Positions 787 through 7,748 of a DNA stretch of 64,000 nucleotides are shown here, piece after piece (the stretch's first letter is position 1; every line of letters begins with the position of its first letter). The position numbers and the translations under genes were made by a program. The notes beneath the pieces are model-generated. The model was given only the letters and a program-made list of their open reading frames with translations. It ran no database searches and had not been told where the DNA came from. The DNA is from a virus (taxonomy: Duplodnaviria; Heunggongvirae; Uroviricota; Caudoviricetes), in the IMG/VR virus record IMGVR_UViG_3300035696_001272; one strand, given 5' to 3'.

Positions 787-860
787 GCTGGCTTCGTATA
801 ATGGCATTATTCTACCCTTGTAACGTAGAGACCCGAGTTCGATTCTCGGCGCCAGCTCCA
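787..860 (+). tRNA. tRNA-Thr(UGU)
   Basis: Cloverleaf GCTGGCT...CGCCAGC-T-CCA; anticodon loop CT-TGT-AA; T-arm CCGAG TTCGATT CTCGG. Confidence 0.93.
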
Positions 861-2301: not shown

Positions 2302-2653
2302 GGGCACGCCCAGGTTTCGACGTGGTAAAGAATCAACGAAACGATACAGACAGAAGAGATTACACTTCTCAAAGTAATCAACGTTTGAATGCTAACGATA
2401 ATGCATTTGCTGAAGCAGCCTAAACAGCACTTCACGTTCTGAGATGAGATATTTTTGGTAATCAAAAGAACGCCAACCCACAAAAGATAGGTTTGAAATC
2501 GGTTACGGGTTTCAAATTGAAATTAACAGTAGATAGCCAGTTGGAGCGAGTATCTAACAGCGTTGTTAGTGACGCTAATACTAACTAAGTCTGTGAACGA
2601 ATTTCGCTGAGGGCATATCGCGGACAAGGGTTCGATTCCCTTCGTGTCCACCA
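2302..2653 (+). ncRNA. ssrA: tmRNA; tag reading frame 2391-2423 encodes ANDNAFAEAA*
   Basis: 5' GGGCACG pairs with 3' CGTGTCC-A-CCA with a G3:U70 Ala determinant; 5' GGTTTCGAC motif; T-arm AAGGG TTCGATT CCCTT; tag ORF GCT AAC GAT AAT GCA TTT GCT GAA GCA GCC TAA. Confidence 0.95.
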
Positions 2654-2859: not shown

Positions 2860-3348
2860 ATGAAATGGCCTCTCCGAAATAAAGTGCCTGCCCTTCCACC
2901 TGTGGGAGGTGTGGGCGATTTTGGTTTTAGACGATCATTCTACCATCATCCGGGCGTGGATGTTTACTGTGGCTTTGGTCAAGAAGTCCAAGCCATTGAA
3001 GATGGAACAGTTATTCTTGTTGAGAATTTCACTGGACCGAATGCAAATCCCCCCAGTCCATGGTGGTTAGACACATGGTCAATCTTGGTGGAAGGTGCAT
3101 CGGGTGTTTTGGGCTATTGCGAAATCAAACCGCTTCCCCATATCAAAATTGGACAAACCGTCAAAGAGGGCGAGTTGATTGCCACTGTTATTCCTGTCCT
3201 CAAGAAGGACAAGGGTAACGGAACGACTATGCTGCATTTTGAACATTATGTTCCAGGAACTAAGAATCACGTTACTTGGGTCTTGGATACTATCAAACCA
3301 GAAGAGCTTTTGGACTCCAGAGTATTGCTGGAAAAATTAACCGACTAA
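2860..3348 (+). CDS. M23-family metallopeptidase domain protein
   Basis: HPGVD (HxxxD), AIEDGTV, MLHFE. Confidence 0.75.
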   Translation: MKWPLRNKVPALPPVGGVGDFGFRRSFYHHPGVDVYCGFGQEVQAIEDGTVILVENFTGPNANPPSPWWLDTWSILVEGASGVLGYCEIKPLPHIKIGQTVKEGELIATVIPVLKKDKGNGTTMLHFEHYVPGTKNHVTWVLDTIKPEELLDSRVLLEKLTD

Positions 3349-3369
3349 TAAAAGGATATATGAGTTGTC

Positions 3370-3963
3370 ATGAGTCTATAGAACCAATTGATTATCGATA
3401 TGAAGGGCACTCTACAAACCGAGTCCCAATCCGTGTATCAACACGGCGTCTCTGTCAAAGAGCACATTTTTGAATTGATTTCATTTTTAAAAACCGGCCA
3501 GATTAGTGAAGGTTGGCGATTACCTACCTGGATGTATGATTACCGAGCACAATTATTGTCCTCGCTTCTTTCAGAAGATATCATTGAAGAGTACACTATC
3601 TTCCATGATTGCGGTAAACCATACTGCTTGACCATTGATGAAAAGGGCAAGCGACACTTTCCAGATCATGCCGAAGTTTCTTATCGTATCTGGCAGACTG
3701 TCAGTTCCAATCAAACAGTCGCCAATCTCATTCGTATGGATATGAAAATTCATACCATGAAAGCGGCTGATATTGATGAATTCATTCAGCATCCCGAGGC
3801 CACAACGTTGTTGTTGGCGGGATTAGCTGAAATTCATAGCAACGCCAAGATGTTTGGCGGCATTGAATCTGAGTCCTTTAAGATCAAGTGGAGTCAAATT
3901 AACAAACGTGGCAAAGCGATTTGTCAGAAACTATTTGGAGATAATCATGTGTCTATAGATTAA
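3370..3963 (+). CDS. HD-domain phosphohydrolase (similar to HD domains of tRNA nucleotidyltransferases); proposed ATG 3370 start with in-frame TAG at codon 4
   Basis: HGVSV...IFHDCGKP...RHFPDHAEVS; ATG AGT CTA TAG AAC CAA in frame with ORF 3388..3963; alternative starts TTG 3388 or ATG 3400. Confidence 0.75.
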
Positions 3964-4294
3964 AGAAGGCGACAAGCTATATGTTATTACTCGTAGGGAT
4001 TTGGAACCGGGTTACCAAGCCGTGCAAAGCATGCATGCTTTGAGACAGTTTACGGCTGATCATCCCGAGATTGATAGGCAATGGTTTGAGCAATCTAATT
4101 ACTTAGGTTTGCTCTCAGTCGCAGATGAAAAAGAGTTGACAGATTTGATTGAACAGGCAACGTATCATAACATTCCGTTCTCTGTTTTTAGAGAGCCTGA
4201 TGTTGACAACCAGATCACAGCAATTGCTTTGGCACCTGGTACAAAATCAAAGAAGTTGTGCAGTCGATTGCCTTTGGCATTAAGAGGAAAGTAA
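3947..4294 (+). CDS. Peptidyl-tRNA hydrolase 2 (PTH2/PTRHD1)-like protein with in-frame TAG at codon 4
   Basis: KLYVITRRDLEPGYQAVQSMHA...SVADEKEL...FREPD...ITAIALAP; GGAG SD 6 nt before ATG TGT CTA TAG ATT AAA; the conserved first strand lies upstream of the ORF-track TTG 4001. Confidence 0.75.
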
Positions 4295-4295
4295 A

Positions 4296-4565
4296 ATGAA
4301 GTGGACTGATAAAGAAGATGGGCCCGAATGTTTTTGTGGTATGCCAACCTTCGTGATTGTGGATGAAAGTGGCACTGCCGGTTTGATCTGCATTCTTCAT
4401 GAAGGAGCTAATGGAGCTTTATTTCCATTACCAAATGAAAGGCCCGAAACTTGGCCTAACCTTTCCATTGACGACTTGGATGCATTAATGCTTAAGGGTC
4501 AAGATGAGCATGATGTTCGGGAAGCGGAAAAGGAACATGAGAAAAACAAGCTTAGCCTCTCTTAA
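4296..4565 (+). CDS. Hypothetical protein
   Basis: ORF track; translationally coupled spacing. Confidence 0.6.
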   Translation: MKWTDKEDGPECFCGMPTFVIVDESGTAGLICILHEGANGALFPLPNERPETWPNLSIDDLDALMLKGQDEHDVREAEKEHEKNKLSLS

Positions 4566-4875
4566 AGAGCGGTTGACTGGTTGGTTACCGTGGGATAAAG
4601 CCATGTATGAAGTAGGCGCTTGCTTGGGATTTTGGCCCGAATTTGGAGCGCCACCTTCTGTGGATGATTCTAATGATCCATGGAATGGAGTCAAAGATGT
4701 CATCTACACCACTAAGCATGAGCCACTAGGAGCTATACTAGAATGGTTCTTAATAGATTTAGTAGAAGTAGGGTGCATTGAAGACAAAGCAGTGGATGAA
4801 GACGGAGTGCCCACTTCTTATTATAGATGGAATCCAAATTATAAAGGGGAAGCGGATATCATTACTATGCTATGA
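4537..4875 (+). CDS. Hypothetical protein
   Basis: AGGA SD before ATG 4537, within ORF 4504..4875. Confidence 0.6.
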   Translation: MRKTSLASLKERLTGWLPWDKAMYEVGACLGFWPEFGAPPSVDDSNDPWNGVKDVIYTTKHEPLGAILEWFLIDLVEVGCIEDKAVDEDGVPTSYYRWNPNYKGEADIITML

Positions 4876-5066
4876 TAGTATGCCTCCATAGCTCAAAGGA
4901 AGAGCAGCCGTCTCTAAAACGGTGGATGCGATGTCAGAATTCGCTGGGGGCGCAAGAGGTTATTATGGTTATCGTTTCATGCTTACTAATATCTATAGTT
5001 GCTGGTACATTTTTAGGAATCCTAATGCATATTTGGAATGATTGGGTTGAACGTAATAAAAAGTAA
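4872..5066 (+). CDS. Small membrane protein
   Basis: Hydrophobic stretch VIMVIVSCLLISIVAGTFLGILMHIW. Confidence 0.5.
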   Translation: MIVCLHSSKEEQPSLKRWMRCQNSLGAQEVIMVIVSCLLISIVAGTFLGILMHIWNDWVERNKK

Positions 5067-5073
5067 GTCGTAT

Positions 5074-5146
5074 GGGCTGTTAGCTCAGTTGGTAGAGCGG
5101 ATACCTCTAAATTATCTGGTCACGGGTTCGACTCCCGTACAGCCCT
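5074..5146 (+). tRNA. Amber suppressor tRNA, anticodon CUA (no encoded CCA)
   Basis: GGGCTGT/ACAGCCC acceptor, GCTC/GAGC D-stem, GATAC CT-CTA-AA TTATC anticodon arm (CTA at 5107-5109), ACGGG TTCGACT CCCGT T-arm, U73 followed by CAA. Confidence 0.9.
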
Positions 5147-5157
5147 CAAGGAGAATC

Positions 5158-5370
5158 ATGAAAAGTCATACTTGTTCTGCCTGGAAAAAAGATGAACATG
5201 CAGATTGCAATACCAAGTGTCCAGCTTGTCGTGCTCAAGACAATATTGAATGCACCTGTCCAGATTGGTGGTTTCCACAAGACCGTCGAGAACAATTGAG
5301 AAAATTACCTCATGATTACGGTAGGATACTTCAACATCACGCGTCCTGTGCCAAAAGAAATCACGAATAA
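5158..5370 (+). CDS. Small Cys/His-rich hypothetical protein
   Basis: AGGAG SD before ATG 5158; the ORF-track extension to 5038 runs through the tRNA. Confidence 0.55.
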   Translation: MKSHTCSAWKKDEHADCNTKCPACRAQDNIECTCPDWWFPQDRREQLRKLPHDYGRILQHHASCAKRNHE

Positions 5371-5388
5371 AATGATATATAATTTGAC

Positions 5389-5571
5389 ATGCAAAAATTC
5401 ATGACTAAATTAGAGATGCAGATTCGTGTGAAAGATCTTCGTGAAGAATTAGAAGCTAGGACCAAAACTGGCATCGTCAAAATGGCCGCTGAAGATGGCA
5501 CACCTGTACCAACTGAAACTCTTCAAAACGAGATGTTTAACCTTATTTATCGATTGAGCAAATTTGAGTGA
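5389..5571 (+). CDS. Hypothetical protein
   Basis: ORF; TGATATAT 8 nt upstream. Confidence 0.6.
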   Translation: MQKFMTKLEMQIRVKDLREELEARTKTGIVKMAAEDGTPVPTETLQNEMFNLIYRLSKFE

Positions 5572-6034: not shown

Positions 6035-6447
6035 TTACTAAGTGGTACTTTTCAAGTGGTGGAAGCATACCGTCTGATTCTCAACCTGACAAAAGATATT
6101 GGGTGTTAGAAGATCCGCGTAAGATGGGTCTCAAGAATGGCCTTCGCCAATTGACTGTCGAGCAATTAGAAAGAGTCATTAACTATCCTGGCGAAATGGT
6201 ATTGGACTCATTTAATTATGAAGACGGAAAGTTCTGTCCTTTGGCTGTGGCGTTGGAACTAGACAAAACCATGACTAACCCCACACATGATAAGGTTTTC
6301 CAAACCTTGACAGACATGGGTTACAAAGTTTACAATACTCGCGGAATTCCAGGCGAGTTTTACACAACCAATAGACTGGAAGATTTGCTGGAAGCAGCAA
6401 AAGAAGTGTTACAGGAGAAAATCAAGCTAAATGCAAACAACCAATAA
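6031..6447 (+). CDS. Hypothetical protein
   Basis: ORF; ATGA overlap. Confidence 0.65.
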   Translation: MITKWYFSSGGSIPSDSQPDKRYWVLEDPRKMGLKNGLRQLTVEQLERVINYPGEMVLDSFNYEDGKFCPLAVALELDKTMTNPTHDKVFQTLTDMGYKVYNTRGIPGEFYTTNRLEDLLEAAKEVLQEKIKLNANNQ

Positions 6448-6973
6448 TCAATCTCAGTATCGTACTCGTATCAATAAGTATATTCGTGTTCCTCAAATCC
6501 GAGTGGTTTTATCGGATGGTAGCAATGGTGGTGTGATGAACACCTATGAAGCTCTCAAGCTGGCTCAAGATCAAGGTCTTGACTTGGTAGAAATCAATCC
6601 GCGAGCCGTGCCACCAGTCTGCAAGATTATGGACTACGGCAAATACAAATACGAAGAAAAGAAAAAGGCTCAGGCAGCTAAGAAGAATCAACAGACTCAA
6701 GAGATGAAAGAGTTGACCTTCCGTCCTAATACTGATGAAAATGACTTAAATCATAAGCTAGTTCAGGCTAAAGAGTTCCTCGAAGAAGGAAACAAAGTTA
6801 AGTTTGCAGTTCGCTTCCGTGGTCGTGAAATTGTCCACTCTGATATAGGTAGAGCAAAGCTTGAGTGGATTCTTGAGCAATTGGACGGTCTTATCTCCAC
6901 CAATCCACAGATTTCGTTGGAAGGCAAGATCATGTGGATGATGGTTAACCCCGCTAAAGGTAACGGCAAGTAA
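6431..6973 (+). CDS. infC: Translation initiation factor IF-3
   Basis: RINKYIRVPQIRVV...LDLVEINP...PPVCKIMDYGKYKYE...KELTFRPNTDENDL..K...FLEEGNKVK...FRGRE. Confidence 0.95.
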   Translation: MQTTNNQSQYRTRINKYIRVPQIRVVLSDGSNGGVMNTYEALKLAQDQGLDLVEINPRAVPPVCKIMDYGKYKYEEKKKAQAAKKNQQTQEMKELTFRPNTDENDLNHKLVQAKEFLEEGNKVKFAVRFRGREIVHSDIGRAKLEWILEQLDGLISTNPQISLEGKIMWMMVNPAKGNGK

Positions 6974-7404
6974 TGAAATGTCCTACGTGTTTTTCCATTA
7001 TGAAATGTATTAGTGAGATTCATGCCCTCCCACACCAACCTGGCAGAGAGAGAATGGATTTGCACTGTTACAATCGAGGAGATCCGCGAGAACCCAATAG
7101 ATGTCGTGCAAGATGCCATATGGGCGTAATCACCGAGGACCCCAAAGAATGGGTCTGTCATGAATATAGTTTTTCCTTCAAACATAAAGAAAAACACTAT
7201 ATTCTACGAAGCTACGATTACCTAGTAGATCCATACCATCAAGGTAGGCCATATGAAGCCAAAACGATTTTAGAAGCTTGGGATTTTCAGCCAGCAGGCA
7301 TTATTGAATTACCATATTTCATTCCAATCTCTACTAGTGATGATATGCATGAAAGAGCTTGGGATCTTTTTCATCGTTTGATAAATCTGAAAGTTTATGC
7401 TTAA
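6973..7404 (+). CDS. Hypothetical protein with N-terminal CPTC
   Basis: ORF; TAATG coupling. Confidence 0.6.
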   Translation: MKCPTCFSIMKCISEIHALPHQPGRERMDLHCYNRGDPREPNRCRARCHMGVITEDPKEWVCHEYSFSFKHKEKHYILRSYDYLVDPYHQGRPYEAKTILEAWDFQPAGIIELPYFIPISTSDDMHERAWDLFHRLINLKVYA

Positions 7405-7682
7405 TGAAATTCAAAGTTCTATTCAGTTTGAATGCAAATAGGCAAACTCCTATCATGTCCTACTATCGTCCAGATTGGGTATCAGATAGCAAGCCAGATT
7501 ATAATTGTGCTCAGATTCTGATTGACGTGCCAATACTTAACCCAGGAGAAAAATGCACGGGTATATTAGAACCATTGGCTATAGATTTTTGGAATAATGT
7601 TGCCATTAATGACGTATTAAAGTGTATGGAAGGGCCAAAACAAGTGGGTGAAGCCATTGTTTTGGAAATCATGTCCCCGTAG
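7404..7682 (+). CDS. Stand-alone EF-Tu domain-3-like beta-barrel protein
   Basis: KFKV...RQTP...YRP...LNPGE...EGPKQVGEAIVLEI vs EF-Tu KF...RHTP...YRP...VMPGD...EGGRTVGAGVV; TAG stop overlaps the tRNA-Arg 5' end. Confidence 0.6.
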   Translation: MKFKVLFSLNANRQTPIMSYYRPDWVSDSKPDYNCAQILIDVPILNPGEKCTGILEPLAIDFWNNVAINDVLKCMEGPKQVGEAIVLEIMSP

Positions 7683-7748
7683 CCTAAAGGATAGGCAACA
7701 GTTTCCTAAACTGTTTTTATGTTGGTTCGAGTCCAATCGGGGATACCA
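7673..7748 (+). tRNA. tRNA-Arg(CCU)
   Basis: GTCCCCG/CGGGGAT-A-CCA; ACAGT TT-CCT-AA ACTGT; GTTGG TTCGAGT CCAAT. Confidence 0.92.

What the first reader, a model, noticed from the sequence alone, without database searches (positions are those of the whole stretch)
3370..4294. Two adjacent tRNA-recycling genes each start with the same M-(S/C)-L-amber minigene in frame with the main ORF
Seen: the HD gene begins C-ATG-AGT-CTA-TAG-A (3369-3382) and the Pth2-like gene begins C-ATG-TGT-CTA-TAG-A (3946-3959). That is 13/14 nt identical, with TAG at codon 4 in frame with each downstream ORF. The Pth2 ATG has a GGAG SD, and no ATG/GTG/TTG lies between the TAG and the conserved KLYVITRRDL strand, so full-length protein seems to need readthrough. 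The HD ATG sits 8 nt after the GGATATAT element, the same spacing as other gene starts. Established: very short minigenes cause peptidyl-tRNA drop-off that Pth resolves (lambda bar minigenes), and prfB uses an early Leu-codon + stop as a sensor. Inference: this is a translational switch in which the nearby CUA tRNA, or RF1 limitation, gates production of an HD phosphohydrolase and a peptidyl-tRNA hydrolase. I know of no described system of this form.
Basis: partly seen in the sequence, partly recalled or inferred. Interest (0 to 1): 0.93.

Follow-up and report, generated by a model that had tools for sequence, protein, structure and literature searches.

The report
Stop-codon-gated tRNA enzymes beside suppressor tRNAs
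Two neighbouring giant-phage genes for tRNA-end enzymes each carry a UAG stop as their fourth codon, next to the phage's own two UAG-reading tRNAs. Over a hundred related phage loci keep this layout, so the enzymes are probably made only while those tRNAs override the stop, which gives such puzzling phage tRNAs a concrete target.

Summary
CATG(A/T)GTCTATAGA occurs exactly twice (3369-3382, 3946-3959; 0.00 expected), placing TAG as codon 4, in frame, of an HD gene and a Pth2-fold gene.

The window holds two tRNA(CUA) genes (4882-4952 and 5074-5146), not one. The 252-kb record (about 59% of the genome) otherwise uses the standard code and avoids TAG as a stop (7 of 254 long ORFs).

Comparative evidence:
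- The early TAG recurs in 54 distinct Pth2-like contexts (median 50% protein identity) and 45 HD contexts, while the flanking codons vary.
- Homologues without the stop have a sense codon there (M-A-T/R-I-K-E-G).
- A tRNA(CUA) lies on the same strand within 6 kb in 54 of 63 TAG loci.
- One sister phage carries tRNA(UCA), and both its genes are gated by TGA.

I read this as suppressor-tRNA-dependent translation of two tRNA-3'-end enzymes (confidence 0.68). The switch's purpose is inferred, and nothing is experimental.

The shared M-(S/C)-L peptide and the CTATAG palindrome are local to this clade, not the conserved element.

This scan has already noted the same pairing on many other genomes. 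Five literature searches found no description of it, and the XacN1 paper (PMC5852040) says that phage's suppressor tRNAs have no known target.

The parts
3355..3362 (+). GATATATG, a promoter-like element 7 nt before the HD start codon. It implies a very short or absent leader.
   Evidence: GATATATA occurs 13 times on + and once on - in the record, and lies 6-9 nt before several gene and tRNA starts. It is conserved as GGATATATA before the HD ATG in close relatives. Function was not tested.
3370..3381 (+). HD gene leader: ATG AGT CTA followed by the in-frame amber gate TAG (3379-3381).
   Evidence: An early TAG is present in 45 of 63 distinct HD contexts and in all 16 HD genes of the Pth2-query loci.
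3370..3963 (+). HD-domain phosphohydrolase-like gene (197 codons including the TAG; stop TAA 3961-3963). Its fold resembles the HD region of CC/CCA-adding tRNA nucleotidyltransferases.
   Evidence: Pfam HD 19.6 bits, below the 22-bit cut-off. phrog_14850 E 5e-65. AF2 pLDDT 93.3, with residues 2-9 after the TAG forming a confident helix. Foldseek: 3wfq and relatives TMq about 0.6, AFDB O67911 residues 254-445 TMq 0.66.
3937..3940 (+). Shine-Dalgarno GGAG, 6 nt before the Pth2-like ATG.
   Evidence: In the 25 of 54 contexts where an SD is recognisable, it lies 5-9 nt (in one case 13 nt) before the upstream ATG, not before the codon after the TAG.
3947..3958 (+). Pth2-like gene leader: ATG TGT CTA followed by the in-frame amber gate TAG (3956-3958). 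It overlaps the 3' end of the HD gene.
3947..4294 (+). Pth2-fold (peptidyl-tRNA-hydrolase-2-like) gene, 115 codons including the TAG.
   Evidence: Pfam PTH2 31.7 bits against a 23-bit cut-off. The profile hits archaeal Pth2 2zv3 at E 6.7e-7. AF2 pLDDT 95.7. Foldseek TM 0.74-0.78 to 2zv3, 3erj, 1q7s and 1xty.
4882..4952 (+). tRNA with anticodon CUA, copy 1. It folds as a cloverleaf but has a 4-bp T stem and a non-canonical 9-nt T loop, with discriminator G73.
   Evidence: Rfam tRNA 45.3 bits; ARAGORN missed it. Cloverleaf MFE. Its anticodon stem-loop matches the first CUA tRNA of relatives L028 and L029, which have U1-A72 and G73.
5074..5146 (+). tRNA with anticodon CUA, copy 2. Canonical cloverleaf, U73, no encoded CCA.
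   Evidence: ARAGORN. Rfam 63.6 bits.
2302..2653 (+). Phage tmRNA (tag ANDNAFAEAA), part of the same translation-rescue island.
   Evidence: Rfam RF00023 116.8 bits. A tmRNA lies at the same relative place in relatives.

Best explanation
The HD gene (3370-3963) and the Pth2-fold gene (3947-4294) start at their upstream ATGs, and their fourth codon is UAG. The phage's own tRNA(CUA) genes, 0.6-0.8 kb downstream on the same strand, decode that UAG. Each full-length enzyme is therefore made in proportion to suppressor activity relative to release factor 1. Without suppression the ribosome releases only a tripeptide.

The gate sits in a short, variable N-terminal tail. An aborted attempt therefore costs little, and the identity of the inserted residue hardly matters.

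Shown here: the anatomy, the conservation of the stop, its absence where the matching suppressor is absent, and the change of the stop together with the anticodon.

Inferred: that the tRNAs are expressed and charged (Gln is a candidate), that the stop is kept because it couples these two tRNA-3'-end enzymes to suppressor activity, and the reason for that coupling. The reason could be feed-forward supply of rescue or recycling enzymes while stop read-through is on, or feedback on the suppressor itself.
For: 1. Start sites. GGAG lies 6 nt before ATG 3947. Across relatives a recognisable SD lies 5-9 nt before the upstream ATG. The HD ATG lies 7 nt after a promoter-like GATATAT(A/G) element, the same spacing as other starts.

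2. The codons after the TAG are translated.
- HD relatives keep N-x-L-I with synonymous Leu and Ile codons.
- These residues form a helix with pLDDT 96.
- The residue after the Pth2 TAG is Ile or Val, encoded by ATT, ATC, ATA, GTT or GTA.

3. TAG-less homologues have a sense codon at the gate position: M-A-T-I-K-E-G, M-A-R-I-K-E-G.

4. The TAG is invariant in 54 distinct Pth2-like contexts, while 20 different codons precede it. The TAG-bearing subtree spans 23 amino-acid substitutions per site, with median pairwise identity 50%. Forty-five of 63 distinct HD contexts carry the gate, and 6 of 7 Pth2-HD fusions carry it at their N-terminus.

5. The device is specific to these two families. Across 86 loci, early-stop ORFs number TAG 113, TGA 62 and TAA 47. 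The TAG excess is entirely Pth2-like (58) plus HD (13). In this record, only these two genes convincingly show it.

6. Linkage. A tRNA(CUA) lies on the same strand within 6 kb in 54 of 63 TAG loci, against 3 of 18 TAG-less loci. For dereplicated proteins the Fisher odds ratio is 26, p 2.6e-6.

7. Codon and anticodon change together. Sister phages G007 and G005 share 75% identity in Pth2 and 60% in HD. G007 has tRNA(CUA) with TAG in both genes. G005 has two tRNA(UCA) with TGA in both genes.

8. A second in-frame TAG lies inside the conserved Pth2 core in two lineages, at a Gln position and a Glu position. Those proteins cannot be made without decoding TAG.

9. The record is TAG-depleted but not recoded. 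Code-11 ORFs cover 96% of it. Stops of long ORFs are TAA 160, TGA 87, TAG 7. The terminase and tail-sheath frames are open.
Against: - No RNA, ribosome or protein data exist for any member.
- The association of TAG with tRNA(CUA) is largely inherited. The tree needs only 6 changes of the TAG state, and the independent-pairs test has no power.
- The codon-anticodon switch is one event.
- Nine TAG loci show no CUA tRNA within 6 kb, although some of these contigs are truncated and ARAGORN misses some tRNAs.
- In G005, TGA remains the commonest stop near the cassette, so suppression there must be weak or costly.
- The suppressor tRNAs are heterogeneous in acceptor stem and discriminator base, so the inserted amino acid is unknown.
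- tRNA copy 1 in the window has a degenerate T loop.
- ATT, the commonest codon after the TAG (37 of 54), is also a weak start codon.
- In Mycobacterium cluster C phages a GTG with good SD spacing directly follows the TAG.
- The record is only about 59% complete.
Confidence: 0.68

Rival explanations
1. Leader mini-ORF with re-initiation. Ribosomes translate ATG-X-X-TAG, terminate, and restart at the next codon (ATT 3959) or at a downstream start (ATG 3400 in HD). The suppressor tRNA plays no part.
For: ATT follows the TAG in 37 of 54 Pth2-like contexts. All close HD relatives keep an ATG 6-7 codons after the TAG. In Mycobacterium cluster C phages the annotated start is a GTG directly after the TAG, with SD spacing that suits it. 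The window encodes its own IF3 (6431-6973), a start-codon fidelity factor.
Against: The codon after the TAG is GTT, GTA, AAC, AGC or CTG in other lineages, including the nearest relatives. The stop is always TAG, never TAA, although TAA is the commonest stop in these genomes. It becomes TGA exactly where the tRNAs are UCA. Second TAGs lie inside the Pth2 core. TAG-less homologues align M-A-T/R-I with M-X-TAG-I. HD residues between the TAG and the internal ATG are conserved as amino acids and fold as a helix.
Confidence: 0.1
2. Neutral by-product of incipient TAG reassignment. Once the phage carries a suppressor and has purged TAG stops, TAG is just another sense codon that drifted into two genes. 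It has no regulatory role.
For: TAG makes up only 2.8% of long-ORF stops, and the real TAG stops are backed by nearby second stops. This matches the path proposed for phage recoding: depletion of the stop, then gain of a suppressor tRNA, then in-frame stops (bioRxiv 10.1101/2021.08.26.457843). Extra TAGs do appear in the Pth2 core of two lineages.
Against: A neutral TAG would be lost by mutation. Instead it is kept at the N-terminus over 23 substitutions per site, while neighbouring codons turn over. It is confined to two unrelated gene families that sit beside the tRNA. Only these 2 of about 300 genes in this record carry it. Both genes switched to TGA together in G005.
Confidence: 0.12
3. 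The gate senses release factor 1, not the tRNA. UAG is read only by RF1, so read-through by host near-cognate tRNAs rises when RF1 is inhibited or titrated during infection.
For: TAG is the only RF1-specific stop. Termination on very short ORFs is known to be inefficient (my own knowledge, not tested here).
Against: No release-factor gene is present in the record, and no RF1 inhibitor was identified. This reading does not explain the tight same-strand linkage to tRNA(CUA), nor the TGA gates paired with tRNA(UCA).
Confidence: 0.05
4. Artefact, broken genes, or a DNA-level site. The TAGs are assembly errors or pseudogene lesions, or the palindrome (T)CTATAG(A) is a protein-binding site.
For: CTATAG is a palindrome and occurs at both starts.
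Against: Two runs give identical contigs. More than 100 independent loci carry the stop. CTATAG occurs 40 times in the record, no more than comparable hexamers, and is absent from most gated relatives, where TCG, ACG, ACT, AAG and other codons precede the TAG. Both proteins give confident complete folds.
Confidence: 0.01

Closest known systems
Stop-codon recoding in phages with phage-encoded suppressor tRNAs (TAG read as Gln, 'code 15'; crAss-like, Lak and other gut phages; bioRxiv 10.1101/2021.08.26.457843; PMC9523058)
   Same: The phage encodes tRNA(CUA). TAG is depleted as a terminator. In-frame TAGs can be read only when the suppressor acts. A role as a post-transcriptional regulator has been proposed.
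   Different: In recoded phages many TAGs are scattered through late, structural and lysis genes, and the 'code-change' genes themselves are written in standard code. Here the genome is standard code, including terminase and sheath. The stop is a single site-specific codon at positions 2-8 of two tRNA-enzyme genes, physically linked to the tRNA, and conserved as such.
bldA tRNA-Leu(UAA) and TTA-containing genes such as adpA in Streptomyces (PMC10732093 as background; the rest is my own knowledge)
   Same: The supply of one dedicated tRNA gates translation of a small set of genes that carry its codon.
   Different: bldA reads a rare sense codon, not a stop. Its targets are scattered regulators and are not linked in cis. 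Lack of the tRNA stalls ribosomes rather than terminating translation.
prfB (RF2) autoregulation through an early in-frame UGA (my own knowledge)
   Same: A translation-factor gene carries an early in-frame stop, and how that stop is treated sets the output of the gene.
   Different: prfB escapes by a +1 frameshift and senses its own product. Here the frame is kept, and the stop matches a separately encoded suppressor tRNA.
Lambda bar minigenes and peptidyl-tRNA hydrolase (my own knowledge; PMC10192219 for early drop-off)
   Same: Two- to four-codon ORFs that end in a stop, in a context linked to peptidyl-tRNA drop-off and Pth.
   Different: bar minigenes stand alone and are toxic when Pth is limiting. 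Here the mini-ORF is in frame with the enzyme gene, and neither its peptide nor its last sense codon is conserved.
Orphan amber-suppressor tRNAs of standard-code jumbo phages, e.g. Xanthomonas phage XacN1 (PMC5852040)
   Same: A large phage using the standard code carries tRNA(CUA) genes. The authors read through 18 amber stops and could not identify target genes.
   Different: The Pth of XacN1 (ORF295) is a canonical Pth2 with no early TAG and is not beside the tRNAs. The target proposed here does not apply to that phage.

Membership tests
Peptidyl-tRNA hydrolase 2 (Pfam PF01981, PTH2) | Sequence match above the curated family cut-off | tested here: met
   31.7 bits against a 23-bit cut-off; 30.8 bits in the genome search. 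The profile of 16 relatives hits M. jannaschii Pth2 2zv3 at E 6.7e-7.
Peptidyl-tRNA hydrolase 2 (Pfam PF01981, PTH2) | Pth2 alpha/beta fold | tested here: met
   AF2 pLDDT 95.7. Foldseek TM 0.74-0.78, E 5e-8 to 4e-6, to 2zv3, 3erj, 1q7s (human Bit1), 1wn2 and 1xty.
Peptidyl-tRNA hydrolase 2 (Pfam PF01981, PTH2) | Catalytic Lys of the GK motif and Asp of the D-A-G-x-T motif (residue roles recalled from the S. solfataricus work, not checked here) | tested here: inconclusive
   In the profile alignment to 2zv3, the Lys of G-K-G-K aligns with Tyr19, which is not invariant. D-A-G-H-T aligns with the invariant E79-P80-D81. An acidic residue is kept and the Lys is not, so the substrate and chemistry may differ from canonical Pth2.
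HD-domain metal-dependent phosphohydrolases (Pfam PF01966) | Sequence match above the cut-off, and the H...HD...D metal motif | tested here: inconclusive
   19.6 bits, below the 22-bit cut-off. An invariant H75-D76 (F-H-D-C-G-K-P) and further invariant His and Asp residues are present. The best fold matches are the HD region of A. aeolicus CC-adding enzyme (TMq 0.6-0.66, E 2e-3 to 8e-3) and GlnD HD domains.
TAG-recoded ('code 15') phage genome | Many in-frame TAGs in conserved genes, with coding density rising when TAG is read as sense | tested here: not met
   Code-11 ORFs cover 96% of the 252-kb record. Only the HD and Pth2-like genes need TAG as sense. Terminase (649 aa) and sheath (947 aa) frames have no stops. 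Caveat: the record is about 59% complete.
TAG-recoded ('code 15') phage genome | Phage-encoded tRNA(CUA) and depletion of TAG terminators | tested here: met
   Two tRNA(CUA) genes. TAG ends 7 of 254 ORFs of 100 aa or more.
Lambda bar-type minigene | A free-standing 2-3-codon ORF whose expression sequesters tRNA as peptidyl-tRNA and is toxic when Pth is limiting | not testable with these tools
   Only the short ORF plus stop is shared. Here it is in frame with a long ORF, and its last sense codon varies among 20 codons.

The most novel reading that the evidence does not exclude
The suppressor tRNA, the Pth2-fold protein and often the HD protein form one old, phage-borne circuit. The enzymes act on the suppressor tRNA, or on the peptidyl-tRNAs that read-through and early drop-off create. 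The N-terminal stop lets their synthesis report on suppressor activity, so the infected cell's level of stop-codon read-through regulates itself. The lock and key can be exchanged as a set (UAG with CUA, or UGA with UCA).
Probability: 0.25. Interest if true: 0.9.

Novelty: new variant of a known kind. Interest (0 to 1): 0.8.

Why it matters
Many large phages that use the standard genetic code carry suppressor tRNAs whose targets are unknown. The XacN1 authors say so explicitly (PMC5852040).

A conserved stop at the very start of two tRNA-3'-end enzyme genes, matching the anticodon of the adjacent suppressor tRNA, gives those tRNAs a concrete and testable target.

It would also be a natural example of expression gated by stop-codon suppression, a design otherwise known mainly from synthetic biology.

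It may represent an early stage of code change, or an alternative to it. It also links suppression, tmRNA, Pth-type enzymes and tRNA-end repair within one phage island.

Mycobacterium cluster C phages are cultured and carry the related gene next to a tRNA(CUA), so experiments are feasible.

Tried and rejected
- **Palindrome as a DNA site.** CTATAG is not enriched (40 copies) and is not conserved in gated relatives.
- **GGATATAT as a general start signal.** It has only 2 copies in the window, at chance level. The looser GATATATA motif is the real signal.
- **A genome-wide early-TAG device.** ATG, 1-6 codons, a stop, then a long ORF is no commoner for TAG (16) than for TAA (23) or TGA (20) in this record. 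Two ATG-TAG-ATG cases look like chance.
- **Phylogenetically independent test of TAG against tRNA(CUA).** The 109-column tree is poorly resolved, with 2 starred pairs and no power.
- **Expression.** No RNA holder was listed. Only two DNA runs hold the stretch, and both may be sources.
- **Amino-acid identity of the suppressors.** The acceptor ends are heterogeneous: G1-C72/A73 in 20, U1-A72/G73 in 8, and others. No GlnRS or release-factor gene is in the record. Gln is suggested only by a second TAG at a conserved Gln position and by the U1-A72/G73 class.
- **XacN1 as a further example.** Its Pth is canonical and has no TAG.
- **Cellular homologues.** The genome-contig scan returned only 3 loci, all on MAG contigs that carry tRNA or tmRNA genes as the phage loci do and may be phage DNA. 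Earlier notes of this scan report bacterial loci, which I did not test.
- **Nucleotide search of the phage collection.** It found nothing related beyond tRNA and tmRNA pieces.
- **Literature.** Five searches found no description of an N-terminal stop gate in Pth2-like or HD genes. A keyword search of an open-access library cannot prove there is none.
Full report
**1. The observation**

The window lies at 69,698-133,697 of a single 251,895-bp virus record with 41% G+C. CheckV estimates the record at 59% complete. The source is peat metagenomes.

- CATGAGTCTATAGA lies at 3369-3382 and CATGTGTCTATAGA at 3946-3959.
- The exact pattern has 0.00 expected matches in 100 shuffles.
- ATG-NNN-CTATAG occurs nowhere else in the record.

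In both cases TAG is codon 4 and lies in frame with the long ORF that follows.
- The HD ORF runs to TAA 3961-3963.
- The Pth2-like ORF runs to TAA 4292-4294.
- GGAG lies 6 nt before ATG 3947.
- The first canonical start after the Pth2 TAG is TTG 4001. Starting there would delete strand beta-1 of the predicted fold.

The TAGs are not assembly errors. Contigs from two sequencing runs are identical over 3300-5200, although both runs may be sources of this DNA.

**2. Surroundings**

Rfam finds three features that ARAGORN missed in the window:
- a tmRNA at 2302-2653, with tag ANDNAFAEAA;
- a third tRNA-Thr at 787-857;
- a second tRNA with anticodon CUA at 4882-4952.

The second CUA tRNA scores 45 bits and folds as a cloverleaf with an odd T loop. 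It adds to the canonical CUA tRNA at 5074-5146 (63.6 bits).

The island also holds these genes:
- a methyltransferase;
- an M23 peptidase;
- an HNH endonuclease;
- a complete IF3 gene at 6431-6973;
- tRNA-Arg(CCU).

**3. The genome is not recoded**

- Standard-code ORFs cover 96% of the record.
- ORFs of 100 aa or more end in TAA 160 times, TGA 87 times and TAG 7 times.
- The few real TAG stops are followed within 0-6 codons by another stop.
- The terminase frame (649 aa) and the tail-sheath frame (947 aa) are open.
- Early in-frame stops followed by long ORFs are no commoner for TAG (16) than for TAA (23) or TGA (20).

The device is therefore confined to these two genes. No release-factor gene and no GlnRS gene is present in the record.

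**4. What the two proteins are**

*The Pth2-like protein.*
- It passes the Pfam PTH2 cut-off.
- A profile of relatives hits archaeal Pth2.
- The model has pLDDT 95.7 and superposes on Pth2 structures at TM 0.74-0.78.
- The canonical Lys aligns with a non-invariant Tyr, and D-A-G-x-T is replaced by an invariant E-P-D.

I therefore call it Pth2-fold and leave its exact substrate open.

*The HD protein.*
- It has the H-D motif but falls just below the Pfam cut-off.
- Its model (pLDDT 93.3) best matches the HD region of the A. aeolicus CC-adding tRNA nucleotidyltransferase and the GlnD HD domains.

*A link between the two.* In seven distinct loci of other phages the two are fused into one ORF, with Pth2 first and HD second. 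This argues that they work on the same substrate, most simply a tRNA 3' end.

**5. Comparative test, Pth2-like gene**

A profile scan of IMG/VR returned 80 loci at 44-87% identity. Four published huge-phage genomes and three MAG contigs were added.

*The gate and its flanks.*
- Fifty-four distinct sequence contexts have ATG, 0-4 further codons, then TAG, directly before the conserved core.
- The TAG never varies, while 20 different codons precede it.
- The following codon encodes Ile or Val through five different codons.
- Where an SD is recognisable (25 of 54 contexts), it lies 5-9 nt before the upstream ATG, and in one case 13 nt.

*How long the gate has been kept.* The TAG-bearing subtree spans 23 amino-acid substitutions per site, with median pairwise identity of 50%.

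*Homologues without the stop.* They either start 1-3 residues before K-L-Y or read M-A-T/R-I-K-E-G. In the second case a sense codon sits exactly where the others have TAG.

*Extra TAGs.* Two lineages have a second TAG inside the conserved core: L042/L043 at the Gln of H-A-L-R-Q-F, and LR756501 at a Glu position. Those proteins cannot exist unless TAG is decoded.

**6. Comparative test, HD gene**

All 16 HD genes in the Pth2-query loci carry an early TAG.

A separate profile scan gave 63 distinct contexts.

| HD context | Number |
|---|---|
| TAG gate | 45 |
| TGA gate | 1 |
| Fused to Pth2 | 7 (6 with the TAG at the fusion's N-terminus) |
| No gate | 10 |

- In 41 of the 45 TAG-gated genes, no canonical start lies between the TAG and the conserved Met.
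- Between the TAG and that Met, relatives keep N-x-L-I with synonymous codon changes.
- The model places these residues in a confident helix.

**7. Specificity**

I counted unique ORFs across 86 loci that have an ATG within five codons before a stop and at least 80 open codons after it. The counts are TAG 113, TGA 62 and TAA 47. Of the TAG cases, 58 are Pth2-like and 13 are HD, and the remaining 42 match the background.

**8. Link to the tRNA**

- A tRNA(CUA) lies within 6 kb, always on the same strand, in 54 of 63 TAG loci and in 3 of 18 TAG-less loci.
- It often lies 12-150 nt after the gene or 60-210 nt before it.
- For dereplicated proteins the Fisher odds ratio is 26 (p 2.6e-6).

This association is mostly inherited. 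The tree needs only six changes of the TAG state, and the independent-pairs test has no power.

The sharper test is one natural switch between two sister phages, G007 (331,776 bp) and G005 (342,591 bp, complete with terminal repeats). Their Pth2-like proteins are 75% identical and their HD proteins 60% identical.

| Phage | Suppressor tRNA | Pth2-like start | HD start |
|---|---|---|---|
| G007 | tRNA(CUA) | M-K-L-TAG-N | M-T-TAG-V |
| G005 | two tRNA(UCA) | M-E-S-TGA-V | M-T-W-S-TGA-V |

Both gate codons follow the anticodon.

One caution applies. TGA is still the commonest terminator near the G005 cassette, so suppression there must be partial or costly.

**9. Mechanism proposed**

- Ribosomes start at the upstream ATGs. 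For HD this probably happens on a leaderless or nearly leaderless mRNA, given the GATATATG element 7 nt upstream.
- At codon 4, RF1 and the phage tRNA(CUA) compete.
- Termination releases a tripeptide. Suppression yields the full enzyme.
- The gate lies in a variable tail, which tolerates whatever residue the heterogeneous suppressor tRNAs insert.

Why these two enzymes are tied to suppressor activity is inference. They may be needed only while read-through is on, together with the tmRNA, or they may feed back on the suppressor. The Pth2-like gene stays next to a tRNA(CUA) even where the gate is absent, as in L070, L089, L106 and L121. This hints at a functional tie beyond expression.

**10. 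Rivals**

- *Re-initiation at the codon after the stop.* It fits ATT (37 of 54) and the mycobacteriophage GTG. It does not fit GTT, GTA, AAC or AGC, the exclusive use of TAG, the TGA/UCA switch, or the internal TAGs.
- *Neutral drift after loss of TAG stops.* It fits the depletion of TAG. It does not fit site-specific retention in two unrelated families.
- *RF1 sensing without the tRNA.* It does not explain the linkage to the tRNA.
- *Artefact or DNA site.* This is excluded by the comparative data.

**11. Relation to what is known**

The closest framework is stop-codon recoding in phages as a translational regulator (10.1101/2021.08.26.457843). In that framework the many recoded codons lie in late genes, and the code-change genes are written in standard code.

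The XacN1 paper reports that the targets of that phage's two tRNA(CUA) could not be found. Its own Pth is canonical and ungated.

Five literature searches found no description of the device.

Earlier notes of this scan describe the same pairing on many other genomes. One is an HD/Pth2 operon in a 359-kb phage that appears to be among my relatives. A later check there kept the observation but priced the self-contained-switch reading low. I treated these notes as leads only.

**12. Verdict**

Dependence on the suppressor tRNA is strongly supported by comparison. The regulatory purpose is plausible but untested. I classify this as a new variant of a known kind of system, namely suppressor-tRNA-dependent decoding of in-frame stops in phages.

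Noticed in passing
window 4882-4952: A second tRNA(CUA) that ARAGORN does not call. It has a 4-bp T stem and a 9-nt loop without the usual T-loop sequence. Its anticodon arm matches the first CUA tRNA of close relatives, which have U1-A72 and G73 (Gln-like). It may be decaying or atypical.
   Followed up: partly
window 2302-2653: Phage tmRNA (Rfam 116.8 bits, tag ANDNAFAEAA) that ARAGORN misses in the window. Relatives carry a tmRNA at the same relative place, with differing tags.
   Followed up: partly
window 787-857, 937-1011, 1967-2040: Three tRNA-Thr genes (UGU, GGU, CGU) bracket a class I methyltransferase gene (968-1960). Close relatives have four, including AGU.
   Followed up: no
window 6431-6973: A complete phage-encoded IF3 (both Pfam domains, E 7e-31 and 2e-26) lies 1.3 kb after the suppressor tRNAs. 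IF3 controls start-codon fidelity and affects leaderless mRNAs, which may bear on the short-leader starts seen here.
   Followed up: no
window 5374, 7754, 28406, 37640 and other places in the record: GATATATA occurs 13 times on the + strand and once on the - strand. It lies 6-9 nt before many start codons and tRNA 5' ends. It is probably a phage promoter element that gives very short or absent leaders.
   Followed up: partly
L146, L154, L156, L159, L160, L166, L167 (about 4650-5560 in each): In other phages the Pth2-like and HD domains are fused in one ORF, with Pth2 first. In six of the seven, the TAG gate is at the N-terminus of the fusion.
   Followed up: partly
L203 (G005:190000-206000), L181, L200: A complete 342,591-bp phage has two tRNA(UCA) genes and TGA gates in both genes, yet TGA is still the commonest terminator nearby (9 of 18 long ORFs). 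How its ordinary TGA stops escape suppression is unexplained.
   Followed up: partly
L108, L114, L115, L116 (Mycobacterium phages Catera, Phabba, ScoobyDoobyDoo, IkeLoa): The 'peptidyl tRNA hydrolase' of cluster C phages is preceded in frame by ATG-TAG or GTG-TAG, directly before the annotated GTG start. A tRNA(CUA) follows it. In the Catera record this tRNA is annotated as tRNA-Arg, but ARAGORN reads its anticodon as CUA.
   Followed up: partly
L042/L043 about 6088 and L110 (LR756501) about 6094: A second in-frame TAG lies inside the conserved Pth2 core, at a Gln position and a Glu position. No other gene in those loci shows an internal TAG with long open flanks on the + strand.
   Followed up: yes
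window 7359-7682: This ORF ends in one of the few TAG stops, and the stop lies inside the 5' end of tRNA-Arg(CCU) (7673-7748). tRNA processing would cut the mRNA at its stop codon.
   Followed up: no
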